The position numbers were made by a program, and so were the translations under genes. Positions 5,860 through 63,046 of a stretch of DNA of 64,000 nt are shown here, in pieces (position 1 is the first letter of the stretch; each line of letters starts with the position of its first letter). The stretch lies in contig OX597836.1 in NCBI GenBank assembly GCA_951406725.2, positions 33,914,001 through 33,978,000 of the forward strand. The letters run 5' to 3'. The notes below the pieces were generated by a model, which saw only the letters and a program-made list of their open reading frames with translations, did not search any database and was not told the origin of the DNA. The DNA is from Octopus vulgaris (taxonomy: Eukaryota).

Positions 5860-6105
5860 GATGCAGGAGTGTCTGCGTGGTAAGTTGCGTGCTTACCAAC
5901 CACATGGTTCCAGGTTCAGTCCCACTGCATGGCACCTTGGGCAAGTGTCTTCTACTATAACCTCAGGCCAACCAAAGCATTGTGAGTGGATTTAGTAGAC
6001 GGAAACTGAAAGAGACCCGTCGTATATATATATATATATGTATATGTTTGTGTGTCTGTGTTTGACTCCCCCACCTCTCAACGTCGTTTGACAACCGACT
6101 CGGCA
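5860..6105 (+). mobile_element. SINE family A (tRNA head, CORE-like segment), 3'-truncated
   Basis: GCAGGAGTG..GTGGTAAG head, GGTTCAGTCCC B-box-like, GGCACCTTGGGCAAGTG, internal (TA)/(TG) tract. Confidence 0.8.
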
Positions 6106-19617: not shown

Positions 19618-20124
19618 AATGATCTTTTGAATTTCTAAATAAAACCTAAATCAACAAAACATTGTGAGAGATATGCTGAGCAACAATCATACAACAATCT
19701 TTTCTAAATGCCATTGACCTGAAGATGATACACCTAAACATACACACCTAATTACAAAACTATACATGCATGAATAACTTCTAACTATCAGCACTTACCC
19801 AAATTTAATCACGGAAATTTCTCCATAGGCACAGGTGTGGCTGTGTGGTAAGAAGCATGCTTCTCAACCACATGGTTCCAGCTTCAGACCCATTGCGTGG
19901 CTCCTTGGACAAGTGTCTCCTACTATAGCCTCGGGCTGCTTCAGCCTATGGTCAAGAGACAATCCGACTTAAATTGCCCATAGATGCCATTGTAATATAG
20001 TCCTAGGCATTAAAGATTATATTTGTCTGTTTAAATAACCAAAGGCCTCGTCAGAGGATATACATAACTATAAATTTATAATAATAATGTTGATATATAA
20101 AAAACATGCTTCCCATACTATCCA

Positions 20125-20495
20125 AACGTTACCCCAACCGCAGAACGGGGCGCCACTGCATGGTGCCAAAGATTCCAACATCACCATCAAAATACAGGAC
20201 CAGATACTGCAACAGCTTGGGTTTCAGAGGACCACAGCTCTTTAACATCCTCCCTAAATGCCTGAGAGACTTGCATGGTGTGAATGTGGGCTTCTTTAAA
20301 ACTAAACTGGATCTCTTCTTGTCGGGGGTCCCAGATGAACCTACCTCACGACAGGAGACACAGATGCGGGTAGCGGCATCGAAGTCCCTTGTTGATCAAG
20401 TGCCACGTATCAGAGGTGGATTCACATATTAGTGTAGCTCATTCAGCGGTGGTGCCCCAGCTAAAACATTTTTAAGGATTTAAGGATTTAAGGAT
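20125..20495 (+). mobile_element. 5'-truncated CR1-group LINE 3' end
   Basis: ORF 20106-20432 (NSLGFRGPQLFNILPKCLR..FKTKLDLFLSGVPDEP); (TTTAAGGA)n tail; near-identical to 45736-46065. Confidence 0.85.
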
Positions 20496-24372: not shown

Positions 24373-25586
24373 TGAGTAAAATGTAAGCAACGTTCTGAAA
24401 ATATGAAATTCACCACAATATATATTTCAACAATGCGGTAATTTTATTCATTAAAGTACGATACCGTTACAATCAACACGGTTTTTACCAGCGAATTGCA
24501 AGTTTGTTTATTCCGGTAACATAAAAATCTGGAGTACTGGAGCAGATGAACTCTTTGAACACACTTTCAGCATCGGTTTGATTTTTGAACTCCTTCTCTC
24601 GCAGGAAATCATCAAGGTGCTTGAAGAAGTAGTAGTCGGTAGGAGAAAGGTCCGAGGAATAAGCAGGATGGGGAAGAACTTTGTAGCCAACTTCCTTCAA
24701 CTTCTGGAGTGTCATTAGTGAAATGTGTGGTCGGGCATTGTCATGAAAAATGACTAGCCCACTTCTGTCGGCCAGTCTGGGACGGAGGAGTAGCATTTTT
24801 CGTTCATTTTGGCAATTTCATGGAAATATGTTTCTGCAGTAATGGTTTTCCCGGGTTTTAAGAAGTCATAGTGGATGAGTCCCGCAGTACACCACAAAAC
24901 GATCACCATAACCTTCTTATTGAAGAGCTCAGGTTTAGGGAAGGTTTTCGGTGCTTCATTTTGGTGCAACCACCGCGATGAAGGTTTTTTTATTATTGTA
25001 CAGAATCCACTTTTCATCGCAAGTTACAATACAGCCGAGAAATGAATCGGTCTGGTTACTGAGAAGCGATGAGCAAATTTCATATCTGCGCATTGTCTGA
25101 TTTTCATTCAAATCGCTTGGAACCCATTTGTTGAGCTTTTTTGATTTTTTGATCGCATGCAAATGGTTGCCGGTTCTCAAGTGGTTTTACGTGGATCTTT
25201 CTCAATAATTGGCCATCATCGATGAGAGATGAACGCCCACTGCTAAATCGTTTAGACCATTTTCGAGCTGACCACTCACTGGTCATTTCCTCACCAAACA
25301 TTTCGTTTTGTTTTCGCGAGCATCTTCATCTGCTTTAAGTCCTTTTTTCAAGTTGGATAGCAAAATTGCTCGATTATCGCGCTTTGACAGTTCCATTTCT
25401 GATGATTGTAACAATTGTGAAAAAAATACCAATGTTAAAGTCATTCATGCTCTTGGGTTAGTCTATAATTGTATTATCAGACAATTGCAAAACAAAAAAA
25501 ATGTATAAATGAATTTCAAAACCCTGCAAAAATCCGGTACATATTCTTCCCGCTTCAAAACGTTGCTTACTTTTTACTCAACCTGA
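24373..25586 (-). mobile_element. Near full-length decayed mariner transposon
   Basis: TIRs TGAGTAAAA.GTAAGCAACGTT.TGAA at both ends. Frameshifted transposase with WVP..L, IVTCDEKW, HDNARPH and HPAYSSDLSPTDY motifs. Confidence 0.92.
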
Positions 25587-26120: not shown

Positions 26121-26558
26121 AGGCGGAGACGTGGCTCTGTTGTAGGAAGCATGCTTCCCGACGACAAGGTTCGGGGATCAGTCCCACTGAGTGACACATT
26201 GGGCAAGTGTCCACTACTATATTCTCGGGCGGACCAAAGCCCTGTGAGTTATCGGAAATTGAAAGAAGCCTGTTGAATATGTGTGTGTGTGTGTGTGTAT
26301 GTGTGTGTGTGCGTGTGTGTGTGAGTGCACGCGTGCATGCGTGTATGCGTTTGCGTCTGTGTTTGCCTCCCACTACCGCTTGACAACCGGTGTTGGTGTG
26401 GTAACGTCGTCATAATCTAGCGGTTCGGCGAAAGTAAGCAGGAGAATAAGTACCAGACTTTAAAGAAACATGTATTGGAATCCATTCATTAGACTAAATA
26501 TTCTTCAAGGTGGTGCTCCAGCATGGCCGCAGTCTGGTGGCTGAAACAAGTAAAAGAA
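26121..26558 (+). mobile_element. Diverged full-length SINE family A
   Basis: Both modules with an internal (TG)n. Confidence 0.8.
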
Positions 26559-26745
26559 CTAAAAAAAATATTTTGGGGGTCTGCATTTTTCTGACTTATT
26601 GAGAACTCACCAATTATATATAATCATCTGTGAGGTCATAGATTTTCGTCGTTCCATCTATGACCATTCAGATGACTATTCAATTTCGCTGCAGATCTGC
26701 ATGGTTAGAAACATAGGAGTTTTATTATTCTACTTGCTTCCAATA

Positions 26746-26833
<88 letters not shown>

Positions 26834-28824
26834 CGTCTGTGTGTCTGTCTGTGTGTCTGTCTGTGTGTCTATCTGTGTGTCTATCTGTGTGTCTGTCTGT
26901 CTGTATGTATGTATTCATGTGTGTGTATACATATATATATATGTCTACATGCATGTAGGTTTTGTGTTTGTATACATGCATGTATGTATGTATGTGCAAC
27001 AATGTATGAATACGTATGAATGTCTTTGCGTATACATATACATTTATTTATTTCTATAAGTATATACATACATCGTACCATCATACACGCGCGCGCGCGC
27101 GCGCGCATGTGTGTGTGTGTGTGTGTGTTGTTTTCCTATCAGGTTTTAGTTCCTCTCTGAGACTAACGTTGCACCAAACAGGAAGTTGATGGAAACCAAC
27201 GTTGGGCGGAAAACCAATATTCCGCCTGGGATTTCGACTTTCACTATATCTATATGTTGCTCAGGACCCTTTTGGGGGCCCCATTTCTCCGTTCCAGCTG
27301 GTTTGCCACATGTATCCAATATCCATAACACTCCCACGTCATATTAGAAGCAATGCGTCGAGAAATCTTGAAATTTTAAAATTTATAATCGGGTTCGGTA
27401 TGGCTGTGGATAAGAAGTTTGGTTCCCAGCCAAATTGTGCTGAGTTCAGTCCCATTGCATAGAATCTTGGGCAAATGTCTTTTGCTATAGCTCGGAGGCC
27501 GACTAAAGCCTTGTGATTGGATCAAGTAGACGGAAACTGAAAGAAGCCCATCGTGTACATATACATGTTCACTTATAAGGTTATCTCAGTAGATTTTCTA
27601 TAGAATTTAGAGCCAGCACGACAAATTACGACGTTTCTTACGCGAACGCGTCCATATAAACAATGCGATTGAAGAAAAAAATCGGCGATGAGTGTACATG
27701 CATATTTCAAGTGTCGATTTTGCTTTTCATCCTTTCGGGGTCGATTAAATAAGTACCAGTTACGCACTGGGGTCGATATAATCGACTTAATCCGTTTGTA
27801 TGTCCTCTCTGTGTTTAGCCCCTTGTGGGTAGTAAAGAAATAGGTACGTGTGTGTATGTGTGTGTGTGTGTGTGAGTGTGTTTGCGCATATATGTGCGTG
27901 AATCTGTTCTGTACTTGTCTGTAAAATTTGAGACTGTACCTACATGAGTGTATATAATGTTGCGTAACTAGAAGAGTGTGTACGTGTATGTAAATATATA
28001 TGCGTATGCCTATACACATGCATAAATGTAAGCCTATGTATGCATGTATATATATGTGCATGTTTGTGCTTGTATATATATATATATATGTACATATATA
28101 TATATACATATATACACACTTGAGGTAACTCTATGTATATGTGTGTGTGCGTGTGTGCATTTGTTTGGATGCACTCATGTGCTTGTTTATATGTGAGAGA
28201 ATATGTGTGGATGTGTTCGTTGGGTCTGTCTGTGTGTGTGCGCGCGTGTATATAAATATAAGTATGTGTAAATATGTATGGATATACGTGGATGTGTCTA
28301 TATGTATGTATGTATTTATGCATGATGTATGTATGTATATATGTGTATGTGTGCTTGCGTATATTTAAGCGAGTGTGAATATGTTCGTGAAGCATGCGTA
28401 TATGCGTACACGTACAGAAGTCTATACTCATATGTATGTATCTGAGTATCAATGCATTTGTGTATGCGTGTGTCTGTGTGTATGTGTGTATGCGTGTGTG
28501 TGTGTGTGTATGTGTGCGTATCCGTGTTCGTGTGTGCGTGCGTGTAATTTCCTTCCCTGTGGGTTTCTGGAAGTAAAGAGTATAATTCTTGATCAAAATA
28601 TAGTCTGACATTATCACATCTCTCAATCTATTATCACATTATAAGATGTTGTTGTTGCTGTTGTTGTTGTTGTTGTTTACTGACATGTGTGTGCGTATAT
28701 ATATATATAATGCATTTGCATGTGGGTGCATTGTGTATGTGTGCGTGCGTGCGTGCGTATTTACAAATGCATACATATATATTCATGTGAATGTATATAT
28801 ATGTATACATGTATTTTGCACAAA

Positions 28825-28889
<65 letters not shown>

Positions 28890-29173
28890 GCACGTATGTA
28901 GCTGCACGAATATTATACACATACGTGTATAGATATACGTGTATAATACGCATAAATACATATCTGCTTATATATGTAACTATATCTATGTATGTTAATA
29001 TACATAAACACACACAAAAACACACACACACATACACACACACACACATATATATATGCATGTGTGAGTATTTCCATACGACCACGTTTATGCACACATA
29101 GTCATATATAAACTCCTACACATATATAACTATGTATATATTTTATGTAGAATTGTATACATATATCCATATA

Positions 29174-29226
<53 letters not shown>

Positions 29227-29429
29227 ATGTGCATATGCATGCATCAATGTATTTATGCATGTTTGCATGTACGCACGTATTTATTATATGCATGTACTGA
29301 GGCATGTACGAATATACATATAAGCATATACAGGCATGTCTGCGTATATATATATATATGTGTATATGTGTTAGTGTTGTGTGTCCGTGCGTGTGTCTAT
29401 GCGTGTGTATTTATATATATATGTTGTTA

Positions 29430-29467
<38 letters not shown>

Positions 29468-29700
29468 CATGTATATTTGCATGTATGTATTTGTGCATAT
29501 ATATATATATTTTTGTGTGTGTGTGTGTGTGTACGTATGCATGTAAGCAGGTAGGTTCGTGGTCGTGGGGGAGATTTTTATTAACTTCACAGTTTTTTAA
29601 CCTAATTCGACAAGACACTTGCCACGGCTGATTATATACTAAAACTGTTTTTATACGCTGTCATTATATACACTCACTTACATATGCACACATACAGAAG

Positions 29701-29750
<50 letters not shown>

Positions 29751-29866
29751 CACACACACACACACACACACACATACACACATGCACACTCACATTCACA
29801 TATACTCACACACACAATCATTTACGTATATATATATATATATATGCAATTACTAACACAAACACA

Positions 29867-29908
<42 letters not shown>

Positions 29909-30414
29909 TTTAAACAGATGTATACGCGCACCATAACGAGTATTCAGAAACACACACACAGACACACATACATATATGTACATTTATATATACATTTATA
30001 CACACGCAATTACACTAGCATATTCGTATGTTCAAATAATACATACACACATACCCACGCATGCGTGCATGCATAAATATATGCATATGCGTGATCTTAT
30101 ATGTAGTATTGGACAGTTAAAGTATATATTCATAAAATTTGGCTGAAGTCGTTGGTTGAGCGCTTGGCCCAATCGGATGTGCAAGGAGCCATGTAAGCGT
30201 TAATTTGTGGATTCGATTTTTCAGTCAATTATTTAGATATAAATGTCAGATTAAATTGGAGTATATATATATATTATCATTACAATATGTTATTATATAG
30301 TTATTATTGTTCATTATTAGTACAATAGTCGCTCTATCTTCTATAGTCGTTCTATCTCCGTTACTTGCAAAGCCTCCTGGTTTGTTAACAAATAATAAAT
30401 GTAATATTGGACAG

Positions 30415-30523
<109 letters not shown>

Positions 30524-31149
30524 TATATATATATATGTATATATGTATATATATACACGCACACATATATATATATAGATACATATATATACATACGTAT
30601 ATATACATACATATATATATAAATATATACATACGTACATATATATATATATGTATGTATGTTTATATATATATAGTTATATATTTGCGTACACACATGC
30701 ATACATATGCATATATATATGTGTGTGTGTGTGTGTGTGTTTCTGAGTGTATGTGTCTGCGTGCGTGTGTGTGTCTGTGAGTGTACACGTATACATATAC
30801 ACACGCAAGTGCATACATCTGCAGAAGCGCTCATACAGAACAGCCATTTTCACACACACACACACACACACACATACACACACACACACACACACATACA
30901 CACACAGAGTCATACAGGCATTCATGCTCGTGCAAACACCCGTAGATACACTTCTACACATACAAAATGCATACGCGTGTAGATTAACCGTTGGGGTATG
31001 AGTTATCATACACAACAATATATGGACCTCCGTTGGTGTCTACGATGCATTATCAGCTTTTCTATTAACTGAATTACCCTGGAAGTATTTTCCCCTCATG
31101 TGAGAAATTCCTCTCTTTCTTTTTTTCTTTACTGCTAAGCAGCTAACGA

Positions 31150-31425
31150 TATAGTAGTAGTAGTAGTCGTAGTCGTAGTAGTAGTAGTAGTAGTTAAAGC
31201 ATCAGCTGCAGCAGCAGCAGCAGCAGTAGTAGTTAAAGCAACAGCTGCAGCAGTAGTAGTAGTAGTTGTAGTAGTAATGGTAGTTCCAACAGCAGCAGCA
31301 GCAGCAGCTACATTAGTAGTAATAGTTGTAGTAGTAGTTGTAGTAGTAGTAGTAGTAGTAGTAATAGTAGTAGTAGTAGTAGTAGTGGTAGTTCCAACAA
31401 GAGCAGCAGCTGCTGCAGTAGTAGT

Positions 31426-31507
<82 letters not shown>

Positions 31508-31630
31508 ATAGTAGCAGTAGCAGTAGCAGTAGCAGTAGTAATGGCAGTTCCAACAGCAGCAGCAGCAGCTGCAGTAGTAGTAATAGTTGTAGTAGTAGTA
31601 GTTGTAGTAGTAGTAGTAGTAGTAGTAGTA
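31150..31630. repeat. Compound (TAG)n/(CAG)n microsatellite with repeated GTTCCAACA interruptions
   Basis: Seen directly in the sequence. Confidence 0.9.
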
Positions 31631-32279
31631 CTGGGGAATGCGCTCAAGCACGTACATCCACCAGGAGTAGGGGAATCACCTTCTGTTGGTGATGCCCTGC
31701 TGCTCCTTGCGGATGACACCTTTGCACCACTCAGACGACAACCCTCCAGCCCATGGGTCTTTTTTAGGATAGACGTTGCTGGTGAGGGTTTAACGAGGTC
31801 GGAATGCGAATCCTTCCTCAGCCTCTTCTACTCGCCTTTTACGTCACTCAGAGGAAATGTTGGGTCTGTTCCTTGACATGTAGGTCCCCATATAAGAAAT
31901 ATGTTTTTTAAACTATGAACAATCTTCTCACTTTTTAAGAAACATCGTAGAATATTGAATTTCCCTTAATTAGTATATGTCTCGATGTTATGTTGCGCTG
32001 ACGACTTCAAACGAGGATGAAATAGTCCTATACACGACAACCAACGACTAAAAATTACAAGAACTTTATTTTATTGTTTCGGGGGAGTCATTACGCCAAT
32101 AATAACACTCGCACTGGTTCATCATCACTTCTTTATTGTTAGTCAACTGGCTAAATGGAAAATTGTCTTGGAATTTAAAAATTATGGCGCCCGTCTTTAT
32201 AATAGCTGAAGGTATGGATAAGATGGGCGAGAGGATGGGGCAACGGAATTGTCATCGAAAATGTTTCTAAAACCTTTTA

Positions 32280-32441
32280 GGCGTAGGAGTGGCTGTGTGG
32301 TAAGTAGCTTGCTTACGAACCACATGGTTCCGGGTTCAGTCCCATTGCGTGGCACCTTGGGCAAGTGTCTTCTACTATAGCCTCGGGCCGACCAAAGCAT
32401 TGTGAGTGGATTTGGTAGACGGAAACTGAAAGAAGCTTGTA

Positions 32442-32484
<43 letters not shown>

Positions 32485-32716
32485 GTGTGTGTATATGTTT
32501 CTGTGTCTGTGTTTGTCCCCTCAACATCACTTGACAACCGATGCTGGTGTGTTTACGCCCCCGTAACTTAGCGGTTCGGCAAAAGAGACCGATAGAATAA
32601 GTACTAGGCTTCCAAAGAATAAGTCCTAGGGGTGGATTTGCTCGACGAAAAGCGGTGCTCCAGCATGGCCGCAGTCAAATGACTGAAACAAGTAAGAGAG
32701 TAAAATAGTAAAAGAG
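32280..32716 (+). mobile_element. Full-length SINE family A
   Basis: Best-preserved copy, with all modules and the 3' hairpin CAGTC-AAAT-GACTG. Confidence 0.9.
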
Positions 32717-32960
32717 TGTCCACTTTCAGTCACGTGGGGTTGGGGGGTGGGGGGTGTCCAGCTTACTCCCATAACATAATTCTATCTGCCTCTAATACAC
32801 CTAAGTACTTGTAACTGTCACCCTCATTCATAGCTCTGATTGATGTCTCATATGGGAGTTTAATCCCTTCTGACTTGGATCTTTCCCCGCTCTCCTAATT
32901 ACGAGCGTCGCAAACATATTTATTCCATCCCCAATGTCATCACACACAACTCTCTCTCTC

Positions 32961-33253
32961 TTTTACTCTTTTAGTTGTTTCAGTCATTTGACTGCGGCCA
33001 TGCTGGAGCACCGCCTTTAGTCGAGCAAATCGACCCCGGGACTTTTTCTTTGTAAGCCCAGTACTTATTCTATCGGTCTCTTTTGCCGAACCGCTAAGTG
33101 ACGGGGACGTAAACACACCAACACCAGTTGTGAAGCAATGCTAGAGGGACAAACACAGACACACAAACATATACACACACATACATACGTATATATATAC
33201 ATATATACGACAGGCTTCTTTCAGTTTCCGTCTACCAAATCCACTCACAACGC
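32961..33253 (-). mobile_element. 5'-truncated SINE family A, inverted relative to its neighbour
   Basis: Reverse complement of about 32400-32716. Confidence 0.9.
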
Positions 33254-33484
33254 TAACATTTGGCAAATAAATTCCGGTTATCCATAAACTGGTGGTGGTT
33301 TATTCTCTCACAACTGCTAAATTCGCAGCATGATTTAAGCCTCTCTCAGAGTTAACGCAACAGGCAAAAAGAGCGACAAGGAATAGCTTTGGTGCGAGCG
33401 GATCATCTCGGAATATTCCCAATATCATAATGGCTTCAGCTCACATTTCTTGGTCTCATGTGGGTATTGTTATGAAGTCGTCGT

Positions 33485-37009: not shown

Positions 37010-37242
37010 GGATAAACTACCTGCAACAATTTGCTGTAAAAGCAGGTACAAGTTTACCTTACTACCTGCGTTTATTGCAAGTTTTGAAGAGTGCAGTTCG
37101 ATTTTAACAGTTATTTTTTCAAAGCTATAATGGAAGTGACAAAAGAGCGTATTTGGCATATTTTGCTTTATGAGTTCAATGAAGGCAACAAAGCAACGAA
37201 AAGTGTGAGGAATATTAATGCAGTATATTGGGATCGGACAAT
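37010..37242 (+). mobile_element. Mariner 5' fragment
   Basis: MEVTKERIWHILLYEFNEGNKATKSVRNINAVYWD resembles the mariner transposase N-terminal HTH. Confidence 0.75.
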
Positions 37243-37319
37243 TGAACCGCGAGGAATTACTGTATCAGAATAAAATAAGGGTCAGTAATTAAATAAAATT
37301 TTAAAAATCACAGCAAGTA

Positions 37320-45550: not shown

Positions 45551-45693
45551 GTTATTATTATTGTTGCCGGAGCGTCGTGGAGTTATTTTTAGGTGTTTTC
45601 GCTCAATAAACACACACAACCCCCGATCTGGGAATCGAAACCGCGATCCTCCGACCACGAGTCCGCTGCCCCTACCACTGGGCCATTATATCT

Positions 45694-45697
<4 letters not shown>
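45364..45697 (-). mobile_element. SINE family B (tail 2) with its middle replaced by (TTA)n
   Basis: Colinear with 34960-35266 except at about 45502-45564. Confidence 0.85.
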
Positions 45698-45735
<38 letters not shown>

Positions 45736-45740
<5 letters not shown>

Positions 45741-46065
45741 CATCAAAATACAGGTCCAGATACTGCAACAGCTTGGGTTTCAGAGGACCACAGCTCTTTA
45801 ACATCCTCCCTAAATGCCTGAGAGACTTACATGTTGTGGATGTGGGTTTCTTTAAAACTAAACTGGATCTCTTCTTGTTGGGAGTCCCAGATGAACCTAC
45901 CTCACGACAGGAGACACGGATGCGGGCAGCAGCATCGAACTCCCTTGTTGATCAAGTGCCACGTATCAGAGGTGGATTCACAAACTAGTGTAGCTCATTC
46001 AGCGGTGGTGCCCCAGCATGGCCGCGGCCTTCGGGCTAAAACATTTTTAAGGATTTAAGGATTTA
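45736..46065 (+). mobile_element. 5'-truncated CR1-group LINE 3' end inserted in (TA)n
   Basis: ORF2 C-terminus, stop codon, 3' UTR hairpin GGCC-TTCG-GGCT and (TTTAAGGA)n tail. Confidence 0.88.
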
Positions 46066-59420: not shown

Positions 59421-61550
59421 TATGTATATAAACATATATATATATAAACATATATATATGTATATACACATATATACATCTATACACACACACATATATA
59501 TATAGATACATACACACACGCACACGCACATATATATGAATGTATGTGTGTGGGTGTACTTTAGAGTTTCCGTTTCTCCCCTACCACAGCTTGACAACCT
59601 ATATGCGTGTATTTACGTCTGCGGAACACTAGCAGTTCAGCAAAGTATATCGATAAAATAACAGTCTTAAGGCATGTATACTCGGGTGGACTTGTTTGAT
59701 TTAAACTCCTCAAAGCGGTGCCCCAGCATAGCCGCTGTCCAATGATCGAAACAAGTAAAAGATTAAAGATATACCACGACATTCTAGGAATAGAAGCTAT
59801 AACCTGGCCTGTCCTTATTGTTGTAACATAAAATAAAATAACTCTTGTTATTAGTTTATTGGCCCGGGTTTTGAAAAACACTATTGTAAAATCATATGTA
59901 AGTTTATATTTATATTTAAGAAAGAATATTTCGGTATTGTCATTATCAAATGCTCGGCCGTCTGTCTTGAATAGTTACGTAAACTTCGTTATGCTTCACA
60001 TAACTTTGTTTATGAACAATATGGCTGAAGGAAAATACCTCAGCGGAACGCTTTTTTTGTGCTTTGACGTGACTTAAACAATAAGGTATGAAAATAGATG
60101 GTGGGAAAGAGAGATCATGTCACCTCGAGCTCACTGAATGCTTTTAAAGTAGACAAAGACACAGTGTTTGTGTTACTCTGTAATTTATCATTATTCTTTT
60201 GTACGATTTTGTCCCCGCCCCTACAATCCTTCTGGCCACTGTAGCGTAAGGGATTACAAAGGAGGAAAAGATGGTTGGCGGGTACAAATTTTTTTAAATG
60301 TTGATTTATAGACCATAAGATAACAAGATGATGGTAATGAGTTCCCGAGAGCAGTAGTTTAAGGAAGGAAGCTTTTAGAATAAAAGGGATTATGACTAAC
60401 TGGACGCTTTGTAAGGAAACGAACATTTGGAAGGAGAAGCGGGTGACACGTTTAAAGGTTTTGGCACGGTATTATACCAGGCATTCATCAGAGCTATGAC
60501 CAGGGAAATACTTATAGAAAAGACAAAACGAGGATACATTTCAACGAAGAGCCAAAGATTGCAGGCTAGAAGGAAAACCTAATACGCAAATTAAGATACT
60601 CAGAGGAAGTACCAATCCTAATGTATCGGAAGACGTGTGAAGACTAAGAAAGCTTTTGGAAGGTTAAGAAACCCGATCTACAAAGTGGCAGGTTAACATC
60701 CAGCAACTCATAGTTTGGCTGTAAAACCTTATTTTCTCAGTTACACTTCAGGAACAGAGCATTAAAATCTGAAGATATACGCGGAGAAATGTGGTGTTCT
60801 CATTCTATAACAGGAATATCGTAACGAAACAGATGTAGAAATATTTCCATAAGAAAGGCTTTCTATATGACAAATATGAAGTGATCTTCTTATAACATGG
60901 TTTGGCTATGTAATAAACAAGCCACCAATTAACTTTGTCACTCTGGCGTTTAGCTATGTCTTTCAGAACACCACATTACATTGTAGAATACTTAAGTGAG
61001 CAAACCTCCTATATCAGTGAAGACGCGAGAAGAGGTTAATGCTTGCAAGAATGAAGGTCGAAAGATTCAACTGAAGTAGATGGCGGTAGACTAAATGATA
61101 AGAGAGTGCAAGATAATATAGTAAATTGATAAATATTTCATTTGTATAAGTGTACCAGACAGTAAAAAAAACAACAACAACAAAAAAAAACGAATTATTT
61201 AAGGAGTGTTATAGACAAAAAAAACCGTGACACAGTTGAGCTACTGGGATAAGCTACAGGGACTGAAGCTCTGCTCTCTTGAGAGAAAGCGCGAAAGATA
61301 TGCCGTGATACACATGGAAGATCCTAACTTTGATACATATGGATCATCCTAACTTTGAAATTGAAAGCTACACCAACAATCGTACTGCAGTGCAGTGCAT
61401 AATACCAAATATACTGTCATTTAATTTAGAAGACGTACCCAGCACTGTAACCTGTGACAGTTTGGGTTTCAAAGGGCCATAACTATTCAACATTCTGCTA
61501 AACAGCCTCAGAGATTTGTTCAGTGTAAATGTGGAGCTCTATAAAGACCA

Positions 61551-61668
61551 TTATTTACATTATTTACATTATTTACGTTTGACGGACATTTGTCCTCATC
61601 CTGTTTGTTGTTAACACAACGTTTCGGCTGATATACCCCAAGATTCCGAGTTCAATTCCAGGCAGTGA

Positions 61669-61746
<78 letters not shown>

Positions 61747-61820
61747 TAACAATAATAATAATAATAATAATGATGATGCTGCTGCTGCTGATGATGATGA
61801 TAATAATAATGATGATGATG

Positions 61821-61880
<60 letters not shown>

Positions 61881-61928
61881 GTGATGCTGCTGCTGATGAT
61901 GATGATGATAATAATAATGATGATGATG

Positions 61929-61995
<67 letters not shown>

Positions 61996-62210
61996 TAATA
62001 ATAACAATAACAATAACAATAACATCGAAAAATATCTTAGGAATGAGAACTCTGGTTCGAAATTTCCTGAAGAAACCTGATGAAGGCTGGAGGGTATATC
62101 AGCCGAAACGTTGTGTAAACAACAAACAAGATGAGGACAAATATCCGTCAAATGTAAATAATGTAAATAATGTAGATAATTCCTCATCTCTAAAATATAG
62201 AACTATATTA
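61551..62210 (+). mobile_element. Penelope-like non-autonomous element with inverted ~88-bp ends, internal (AAT)/(GAT) array and a hammerhead
   Basis: Arms at 61551-61638 and 62092-62179; 13-bp TSD TCTA(T/C)AAAGACCA at 61538-61550 and 62211-62223. Confidence 0.8.
62072..62117 (+). ncRNA. Minimal type I hammerhead ribozyme
   Basis: AAAC CTGATGA A GGCTG-GAGGGTATAT-CAGCC GAA ACGT T GTGT; 5-bp stem II, palindromic ACGT stem III, GUU site, stem I 3/4 paired. Confidence 0.75.
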
Positions 62211-62751
62211 TCTACAAAGACCACCTGGACAAATTTTTATCTGACATACTAGATTGAATCCAGATCGTGGCAAGAACAGCTCCAGCCAACTCGAAGCTTA
62301 ACCAGAAACAGTTCAGAAAAGAAACCCAGATACATTGAAAGATGGTTCTTCAGCAAGTAAAAGACAAATAAGTGAGACAACGCCAATGCACGCAACTTCT
62401 GTTTAATTTCAATTGATTTTTTTTATTAGAGTCGACGCGTATCGTCTGCTGTTCTCAGATTTTAAGCAACCCTTCTGAGGAATGCATTCGTTGCTTAATC
62501 TCATTTAATCGAAGTTGTATTTTTCGACTGCTAATATAAAATATGCACGGCCCGAACATAATTTCATTTCGCTTACAAAGGCTTGGAGTGATAAAGTGAG
62601 CGATGACAAATTACTGATGAGTCTTTAATAAAGGCCGAAACTAATCGGATCGATATTTACCTCAGGCTACTGTGGTTTCTGTAGCGAATTGTCTACAGGT
62701 TATATTTTCACTGACAGACTAAATAGATGTTTACCAAACATGTCGTATATG

Positions 62752-62849
62752 ACTTTCTTCTACACATTTACAGTATATTTATGTAGCTATATCACATATA
62801 TATTATTACTGCATATACGCTATATACATTATATTACTATCTAACTATA

Positions 62850-62938
<89 letters not shown>

Positions 62939-63046
62939 GTGTGTGTGTGTATAGTTAGATAGTAATATAATGTATATAGCGTATATGCAGTAATATATAT
63001 ATGTGATATAGCTACATAAATATACTGTAAATGTGTAGAAGAAAGT
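62752..63046. repeat. ~295-bp near-perfect palindrome
   Basis: ~98-bp arms (62752-62850 and 62949-63046) around a self-complementary (CA)n(TA)n(TG)n centre. Confidence 0.95.

What the first reader, a model, noticed from the sequence alone, without database searches (positions are those of the whole stretch)
61551..62210. Complete TSD-bounded hammerhead element with inverted ends
Seen: a 660-bp insert splits an old LINE reading frame with a 13-bp TSD. It has ~88-bp inverted arms ending in (ATGTAAATA)n, a hammerhead at 62072-62117 of which the left arm copies only the 3' half, an internal (AAT)/(GAT) array with a duplicated unit, and B-box-like motifs (GAGTTCAATTCC at about 61648, GGTTCGAAAT at about 62054). 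This gives exact boundaries for one member of the system and shows that it carries its own microsatellite.
Basis: partly seen in the sequence, partly recalled or inferred. Interest (0 to 1): 0.75.

Follow-up and report, generated by a model that had tools for sequence, protein, structure and literature searches.

The report
tRNA-headed retroposon with Penelope-type hammerhead end
This is one damaged copy of a very abundant short jumping element in an octopus-like genome; it seems to join a tRNA-derived start to the ribozyme-bearing end of Penelope-like retroelements, which would make it a short parasite of an enzyme class not usually known to carry such passengers.

Summary
The insert is real. 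It spans 61551-62210, splits the 3' end of an old LINE frame, and has a 12/13 target-site duplication and 89-nt inverted arms. The arms are not fixed TIRs. A 30-nt tail lies outside the right arm only, and related copies vary in arm length and tail presence, which is the published Penelope-like (PLE) insertion signature.

The hammerhead is a PLE-type minimal type I motif. In this copy 2 of 5 helix I pairs are broken against the family majority, and the left arm is antisense to it, so it is probably dead. The family is very abundant. Its AAT run is native and expanded here.

Three sister elements from another genome share the hammerhead end and begin with a tRNA-like A box and B box. This copy keeps only the B-box half, so it is 5'-truncated rather than complete.

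Best reading: a tRNA-headed, non-autonomous retroposon mobilised by PLE enzymes (0.65). No autonomous partner was found, and neither cleavage nor Pol III transcription is shown. The insertion anatomy is known. The tRNA-head plus PLE-end pairing was not found in 10 literature searches; schistosome SMalpha is closest.

The parts
61224..61550 (+). Host element, left piece: decayed 3' end of a LINE ORF2 (frameshift near 61310, one stop)
   Evidence: tblastn with P0004/P0007/P0008, E 1e-19 to 1e-23; these carry RVT_1 and AP-endonuclease Pfams
61538..61550 (+). Left target-site duplication (13 bp, one mismatch to the right copy)
61551..61638 (-). Inverted, 5'-truncated copy of the 3' arm, without tail; holds only the 3' half of the hammerhead
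61639..61672 (+). Remnant of the presumed tRNA-like head: B box at 61650-61658; the A-box half is absent (inferred 5' truncation)
   Evidence: B box; aligns to the B-box halves of the L006, L003 and L008 heads, reached by 3, 5 and 47 of 2000 shuffles; family-native per RNA loose ends
61673..62023 (+). (AAT)n array with GAT/GCT blocks and a 108-bp internal duplication (61772-61879 / 61880-61987); expanded from a short family-native run
   Evidence: table 7
62024..62071 (+). Family body upstream of the ribozyme, with a one-mismatch B-box-like word at 62055
   Evidence: covered in all four runs
62072..62117 (+). Minimal type I hammerhead: helix I 62072-76/62113-17, core 62077-83, extra base 62084, helix II 62085-90/62099-104, core 62105-08, 4-nt palindrome 62108-11, predicted cut after 62112. 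Two helix I pairs are broken in this copy
   Evidence: family majority differs at 62074 (94-99% of DNA depth) and 62117 (98-99%) and restores pairing
62118..62180 (+). A/C-rich region and three 9-nt units; tail-less copies end here (loose ends at 62165, 62174)
   Evidence: table 7
62181..62207 (+). One-sided tail; its first 9 nt pair with 62129-62137; the family sequence ends at about 62204-62207
   Evidence: fold z -2.8, 1 of 200 shuffles as stable; DNA depth falls more than 100-fold between bins 62186-96 and 62208-18
62208..62210 (+). About 3 nt of unknown origin between tail and TSD
   Evidence: inferred from where family depth ends
62211..62223 (+). Right target-site duplication
   Evidence: a 691-nt contig of run X1 covers 62178-62330 with 2 differences (table 8; X1 may be the source sample)
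62211..62308 (+). Host element, right piece: the LINE frame continues

Best explanation
A dead copy of a high-copy, non-autonomous retroposon of octopods. The full element would be about 300-370 nt: a tRNA-derived head with A and B boxes, a family-specific body (here with a short AAT run), and a Penelope-type 3' module (minimal hammerhead, A/C-rich stem-loop, optional 30-nt tail). Steps: (1, inferred) Pol III transcribes master copies from the internal promoter. (2, inferred from PMC11167929) A PLE RT/GIY-YIG protein binds the 3' module in trans, nicks AT-rich DNA on both strands and starts reverse transcription at one of two sites, giving tailed and tail-less ends. (3, shown as anatomy) Both target ends carry a copy, head to head: a long direct copy with tail and a short inverted one without; a 13-bp stagger is duplicated. 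(4, shown for sister families, inferred here) Either copy can be 5'-truncated; this one lost the A box. (5, shown) After insertion the arms diverged (5 of 89), helix I broke and the AAT run expanded and duplicated. The hammerhead can work at best as a dimer in master transcripts. In read-through RNA the arms form dsRNA that sequesters it and is probably edited by ADAR.
For: PLE signature in this copy: inverted truncated arm, one-sided 30-nt tail and TSD, as described in PMC3846280 and PMC8557442; hammerhead shape as in PMC4209133. Variable arms: 4 of the 15 joints shown (81 in all) switch strand, each at different places. 17 of 99 spurious ORFs over related copies hold an antisense arm upstream of the direct one, with inner ends about 62038-62112; shuffled proteins gave none. 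Two end classes: 41 tailed and 23 not fully tailed of 64 classifiable (98 examined), and loose-end clusters at 62165/62174 and 62204. tRNA head: 3 of 3 sister elements with a head match have a strict A box at nt 8-9, a B box at nt 63-73 and the hammerhead at nt 211-225. L003 and L008 heads match real tRNAs better than 200 of 200 shuffles. Three further copies (P0031, P0082, P0096) run antisense to the same 5' end (L003 5867) and join direct copies that start at three different points, so the 5' end is fixed and the element short. L006 repeats the whole layout with a perfect 12-bp TSD.
Against: The A-box half was never seen for this window's own family; the link rests on a 20-40 nt alignment to sister heads (3, 5 and 47 of 2000 shuffles). 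Rfam and ARAGORN do not call any head a tRNA, and the L006 head was matched by 24 of 200 shuffles. No PLE RT sharing the arm was found. Covariation over 8 sequences did not beat the shuffles (91/500 for the score), although helix II is 90.5% paired with 2 compensated pairs. RNA-seq shows no pile-up of ends at the cut site (table 6). Core CpG sites decay like non-core ones (8-14% in X7 DNA), so individual copies are not under selection. A frame is open through the body and stops at the hammerhead's TGA, as a PLE ORF end might. Two other sister matches (L005 and the copy at L008 1075-1240) show no head, and no clear TSD was found for L003 or L008.
Confidence: 0.65

Rival explanations
1. A 5'-truncated end of an autonomous PLE: the body is the last codons of the ORF or the pLTR, the B-box word is chance, and there is no separate non-autonomous family.
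For: All insertion hallmarks fit equally. A frame runs open through the array and stops at the hammerhead. N-rich (AAT/AAC) inserts occur in rotifer PLE ORFs (PMC3846280). Exact B-box words occur 15 times in the window. Earlier agents read similar shark elements this way (unchecked notes).
Against: Sister elements with the homologous end have fixed tRNA-like 5' ends 210-224 nt above the core and mutually unalignable bodies apart from the head. The remnant aligns to their B-box halves. Searches for longer proteins with either frame found nothing (weak tests). All 99 phmmer hits are at most 366 aa.
Confidence: 0.17
2. A monomer of a non-LTR retrozyme that spreads through self-cleaved circular RNA from tandem arrays.
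For: Type I hammerhead. Some sister copies hold 2-3 direct units of about 41 codons (P0011, P0012, P0042, P0107). Retrozymes are argued to derive from PLE pLTRs.
Against: One unit only here. The tandem units are 5'-truncated partial tandems that begin just above the core, not at the cut site. Retrozymes are reported to lack promoters. No ends at the cut site.
Confidence: 0.08
3. An ordinary LINE-mobilised tRNA SINE whose inversion arose by twin priming; the hammerhead is a passenger.
For: tRNA-like heads; TSDs of 12-13 bp; many LINEs nearby; 9-nt repeats near the 3' end resemble SINE tails.
Against: Both arms carry the same 3' end (a duplication), whereas twin priming inverts a non-overlapping 5' part (own knowledge). 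There are two discrete 3' ends 30-40 nt apart. The core is kept across families whose ends are only 66-70% alike.
Confidence: 0.07
4. A MITE or foldback DNA transposon with fixed TIRs.
For: 89-nt inverted arms and a TSD; mariner transposase fragments elsewhere in the window.
Against: The right arm is not terminal; arm length varies; TSDs of 12 and 13; many copies have one arm or direct tandems; the mariner pieces share no sequence with the arm.
Confidence: 0.02

Closest known systems
EN+ Penelope-like element insertions (pLTR, inverted 5'-truncated copy, tail; PMC3846280, PMC8557442, PMC11167929)
   Same: Head-to-head inverted copy, 30-nt tail at one end only, short TSD, two discrete 3' ends about 80-125 nt below the hammerhead core, partial tandems in relatives.
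   Different: No ORF; the body is short and, in sister families, starts with a tRNA-like A/B-box head.
Minimal hammerheads of metazoan PLEs (PMC4209133)
   Same: Type I, short helix I, long helix II, extra base between positions 9 and 10.1, G10.1-C11.1 pair, palindromic helix III; pairs on opposite strands 100-700 bp apart are described there.
   Different: Octopus is not named in the two parts read; this copy's helix I is broken; activity untested.
Schistosoma SMalpha / Sjalpha SINE-like retroposons (seen through the review PMC6765202 and PMC8490949; originals not read)
   Same: A Pol III-type promoter followed by a type I hammerhead in a short non-coding retroposon.
   Different: Described as tandem-repeated with an active ribozyme. 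The passages read do not mention inverted arms, a tail or a PLE partner. Unrelated host group; no sequence comparison was made.
Metazoan non-LTR retrozymes (PMC7761336; 10.64898/2026.07.22.740005)
   Same: Non-autonomous, type I hammerhead, proposed PLE dependence.
   Different: Defined by full tandem units and circular RNA, and said to lack promoters; here dispersed, tRNA-headed, with inverted arms.
Octopus tRNA-derived SINEs (Ohshima and Okada 1994, seen only as a citation; family names OK and OR1 recalled, OR2 named in PMC4758252; tRNA-Core and tRNA-Deu in PMC8967140)
   Same: tRNA-derived, very abundant in octopus genomes.
   Different: Assumed LINE-dependent; no hammerhead in the passages read. 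This family may already be one of them, or sit among the 893 unclassified recently active SINE families of PMC13282606; their sequences could not be compared.

Membership tests
Penelope-like element insertion | Inverted 5'-truncated copy adjoining the 5' end, variable in length | tested here: met
Penelope-like element insertion | 30-40 bp tail at only one end, optional among copies | tested here: met
   62181-62207; 41 tailed and 23 not of 64 classifiable
Penelope-like element insertion | Minimal type I hammerhead in the terminal repeat | tested here: met
   intact in the family majority, damaged in this copy
Penelope-like element insertion | Short TSD of variable length | tested here: met
   13 bp (12/13) here, 12 bp at L006; none clear at L003 or L008
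Autonomous PLE | ORF with PLE RT and GIY-YIG endonuclease | tested here: not met
   none in the insert; no RT or GIY-YIG among 114 of 216 window frames scanned
PLE-mobilised non-autonomous element | An autonomous partner shares the 3' module | tested here: inconclusive
   not found; no host genome held
tRNA-derived SINE | Head with internal A and B boxes | tested here: inconclusive
   met in 3 sister elements; this copy has the B box only
tRNA-derived SINE | Short (under 700 bp), non-coding, high copy | tested here: met
   sister units 273-371 nt; 26,436-33,327 contigs laid per DNA run (not a copy number)
tRNA-derived SINE | Transcribed by Pol III | not testable with these tools
   the RNA run shows equal depth in both directions and no common start
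tRNA-derived SINE | Depends on a LINE RT (SINEBase definition, PMC3531059) | tested here: inconclusive
   the anatomy points to a PLE instead; no partner of either kind was identified
Non-LTR retrozyme | Tandem full units, each with a hammerhead | tested here: not met
   single unit here; relatives show truncated partial tandems
Non-LTR retrozyme | Circular RNA and self-cleavage | not testable with these tools
   no end pile-up in one RNA run, which is a weak test
MITE / TIR transposon | Fixed terminal inverted repeats and constant TSD | tested here: not met

The most novel reading that the evidence does not exclude
Cephalopod genomes hold a radiation of tRNA-headed SINE families whose partner enzyme is a Penelope-like RT/GIY-YIG protein rather than a LINE. 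Because PLE insertion lays down inverted arms, many copies are ready-made hairpins and may supply a real share of the exceptional A-to-I hyper-editing substrate of octopus RNA.
Probability: 0.5. Interest if true: 0.72.

Novelty: new variant of a known kind. Interest (0 to 1): 0.55.

Why it matters
SINEs are defined as LINE-dependent (PMC3531059), and known PLE passengers are retrozymes or pLTR derivatives without a described promoter. A tRNA head on a PLE end would add a host-parasite pairing among retroelements and could reclassify part of the large unclassified SINE load of octopus genomes. A template of about 350 nt with very many natural insertions is also a compact way to study open questions in PLE biology: how inverted arms and the tail form, and what the hammerhead does. 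The hairpin copies may help explain octopus hyper-editing (PMC5625713). This single copy is decayed and matters only as an example.

Tried and rejected
No host genome is held, and no second copy lies in the window. Rfam found no hammerhead or tRNA; ARAGORN found no tRNA in the window or in L003, L006 and L008. The metagenome scan gave 2 chance matches in prokaryote-type coding DNA. Exact pattern scans of bacterial genomes and viral contigs gave none; protein-based viral scans gave none. Protein searches for a longer ORF holding either frame gave nothing significant (the first was swamped by low complexity). The Atlas gave no usable hit for P0011. Of 22 RT matches in G001, 10 were fetched: 9 had no hammerhead-like word and the tenth a weak one. 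The 99 'proteins' are treated as spurious ORFs over repeats, not genes; P0052 was dropped as an unrelated Cys-rich protein. Covariation was not significant against shuffles. The ATG inside the hammerhead core was rejected as an ORF start: it stops after 25 codons and its middle base varies. The second B-box-like word was rejected (one mismatch, no A box). Supplements: that of PMC8557442 lists only Naiad families in the two Octopus rows shown (of 4 occurrences) and lacks two arm motifs; that of PMC13282606 was listed but not read, and its TE library is on Zenodo, out of reach; the bioRxiv supplement is closed. Any of these, Repbase or Dfam could already hold this family.

Full report
OBSERVATION. 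The insert occupies 61551-62210. Its arms are 61550-61638 and 62092-62180 (89 nt, 94%), with five mismatches. The flanks 61538-61550 and 62211-62223 match at 12 of 13 bases; chance is about 0.0014 over 800 placements. The host is the decayed 3' end of a LINE ORF2: full-length relatives carry RVT_1 and AP-endonuclease domains. The left flank aligns up to residue 940 of P0008 and the right flank resumes at residue 939 (right side E 0.022 only). A paralog at window 20094-20432 shows the same two-residue overlap. One contig of run X1 crosses the right junction with 2 differences; X1 may be the source sample. The array (61673-62023) has a 108-bp duplication.

HOST. No genome is held. The best protein-level match to the arm (P0010, 84%) is a UniRef entry from Octopus bimaculoides; it was the only named one among 30 looked up. 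Of 24 runs listed, 20 hold part of the stretch, from 14 studies. I laid 4 of them.

HAMMERHEAD. The motif is type I with a 6-bp helix II, one extra base before it, a 4-nt palindrome as helix III and a predicted cut after 62112. It is the only one of 3 descriptor hits in the window with both features, which 0 of 100 shuffles produced. This is the shape of PLE minimal hammerheads in PMC4209133 (parts 1-2 of 4 read), where monomers did not cleave and dimers cleaved weakly, and where pairs on opposite strands 100-700 bp apart are noted. Rfam does not detect it. Helix I has 3 of 5 pairs here. In three DNA runs 94-99% of depth carries other letters at 62074 and 62117 that restore both pairs (that table showed about 40 rows and withheld 47). 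The left arm lacks the 5' core, and in a plus-strand transcript it pairs with the right arm (-164.8 kcal/mol for the whole insert). So this copy is probably inactive (inference). Core CpG positions vary at 8-14%, like CpGs outside the core. An 8-sequence alignment keeps helix II 90.5% paired with two compensated pairs, but no measure beats its shuffles. RNA reads show no pile-up of ends, as also reported for the anole PLE (PMC11167929, parts 1-2 of 4).

FAMILY STRUCTURE. Each DNA run laid 26,436-33,327 contigs on 321 bases; this shows abundance, not a copy number. Depth continues through 62181-62207 at 25-38% of the arm's level and then falls more than 100-fold. Loose ends cluster at 62165/62174 and at 62204. 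The 30 nt outside the right arm are therefore a family tail present on some ends only; its first 9 nt pair with 62129-62137 (z -2.8). Of 81 joints, 15 were shown; 4 switch strand, at 62011/62098, 62058/62124, 62085/62140 and 62086/62118 (their geometry is not given). A phmmer search with one arm frame returned 99 short spurious ORFs over related repeats. Twenty hit the arm on both strands: in 17 the antisense part lies upstream with inner ends from about 62038 to 62112 (alignment ends, imprecise), and in 3 it is a weak downstream hit; shuffled proteins gave none. By eye only 3 of the 17 (P0016, P0038, P0094) are of this window's own type; most belong to a sister family. Of 98 examined, 41 have the tail, 23 lack a full tail, 25 end too soon and 9 had no core match. 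An inverted truncated copy, a one-sided 30-40 bp tail and a short TSD are the PLE signature (PMC8557442, passages; PMC3846280, passages and Discussion; PMC8969392, passages). PMC11167929 ties the tail to two reverse-transcription start sites. RNA reads of other copies show the 61645-61680 segment followed by a short AAT run (table 7), so the microsatellite is native and expanded here.

THE HEAD. A sister-family protein query found L003, animal-like DNA (microsatellites, LINE pieces, GC 31-44%) inside a record labelled as a bacterial MAG, handle G001. Its element matches the arm at 69% over 157 nt. A search of G001 gave four more matches. Three elements (L003 5868-6222, L006 1663-1935, L008 1771-1401) start with a strict A box at nt 8-9, have a B box at nt 63-73 and the hammerhead core at nt 211-225; their bodies do not align. 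L006 has an inverted arm and a perfect 12-bp TSD; L008 has an inverted arm and no clear TSD; L003 has neither. L005 and a second L008 copy show no head. Against 35 of the 49 tRNAs of G001, the L003 and L008 heads score above 200 of 200 shuffles, while L006 is matched by 24 of 200. Rfam and ARAGORN call none a tRNA. Four spurious ORFs read the L003-type head in antisense; three run to L003 position 5867 and then join direct copies starting at 6037, 6085 and 6094, which shows a fixed 5' end. Window 61640-61667 aligns to the B-box half of the three heads (3, 5 and 47 of 2000 shuffles). I infer that this copy lost about 50-60 nt including the A box. This step was not observed for the window's own family.

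MECHANISM. Shown: boundaries, arms, tail, variability, decay, and A/B-box heads in sister families. Inferred: Pol III transcription of master copies; recognition of the 3' module by a PLE RT/GIY-YIG protein in trans; copying onto both target ends from two start sites; dimer-only cleavage, if any. Not found: the partner. Confidence is about 0.9 that the insertion was made by PLE machinery and 0.65 for the full tRNA-headed model.

EDITING. In RNA run X22 there are 20 A>G and 19 T>C places against 4 and 5 in DNA run X7 of the same species label, while other change types are similar. Five listed places reach 14-21% in RNA and 0.1-0.9% in DNA. One C>G place behaves the same way (13% vs 0.6%) and no matched DNA exists, so a few highly expressed copies or individual differences could explain part of it. 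PMC5625713 (passages) reports octopus as extreme in hyper-editing and lizard Penelope as heavily edited.

COMPARISON. It works like a PLE insertion and meets all four insertion features tested. It is not an autonomous PLE, not a MITE and not a tandem retrozyme by the tests above. Membership among SINEs is open, since Pol III use is untested and the definition names a LINE partner (PMC3531059, passages). The closest known case is schistosome SMalpha, a Pol III promoter plus hammerhead (review PMC6765202 and PMC8490949, passages). Retrozymes: PMC7761336 passages, and the 2026 preprint part 1 of 5 plus passages, where 'tRNA', 'promoter' and 'Octopus' do not occur. Octopus repeat papers: PMC13282606 part 1 of 3 and passages, with no 'ribozyme'; PMC8967140, PMC4758252 and PMC10886601 passages. 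Ten searches found no description of a tRNA-headed, PLE-ended element in cephalopods. The library lacks most subscription papers, including Ohshima and Okada 1994, so the family may already be named without this link.

VERDICT. The feature is real. The insertion pattern and ribozyme type are known; the head-end pairing is a new variant with moderate support. Interest 0.55.

Noticed in passing
window 62610-62650: A second, sequence-unrelated hammerhead-like word (core at 62614, 6-bp hairpin, GAAA) in a stretch with no match to the arm. It failed my descriptor because of an extra base at the helix II base, and the fold z-score is 0.18. Possibly a decayed end of another PLE family.
   Followed up: partly
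window 62804-62995: A 96-nt, 94% palindrome with no spacer, built around (CA)n(TA)n(TG)n.
   Followed up: no
window 61551-61638: The three arm differences where the left arm seems to carry the derived base are A>G, A>G and T>C on the element's sense strand, the direction expected from an edited template; too few to test.
   Followed up: no
window 62054-62075: About 90-100 contigs per DNA run carry a different sequence upstream of helix I (loose ends at 62075): a subfamily with the same ribozyme and another body.
   Followed up: no
G001 contigs C16 and C52 (L003-L008, L053-L060): A record labelled as a bacterial MAG holds long stretches of animal-like DNA with LINE fragments and microsatellites on contigs that also carry bacterial-type tRNAs: likely host contamination or chimeric assembly.
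   Followed up: partly
P0031, P0082, P0096: Copies in which the inverted partner is full length to the 5' end and the direct copy is the truncated one, so either arm can be the long one. L006 carries the tail on the inverted arm.
   Followed up: partly
window 24488-25325, 37088-37270: Mariner-type transposase fragments (PF01359, PF17906), unrelated to the arm.
   Followed up: no
window 1671, 4206, 8654, 11612, 13694, 32148, 39263, 45685, 49489, 63672: Ten strict A-box matches, probably heads of other tRNA-derived SINEs; not examined.
   Followed up: no
window 20094-20432 and 45593-45988: Two younger 3' fragments of the same LINE group as the host element.
   Followed up: partly
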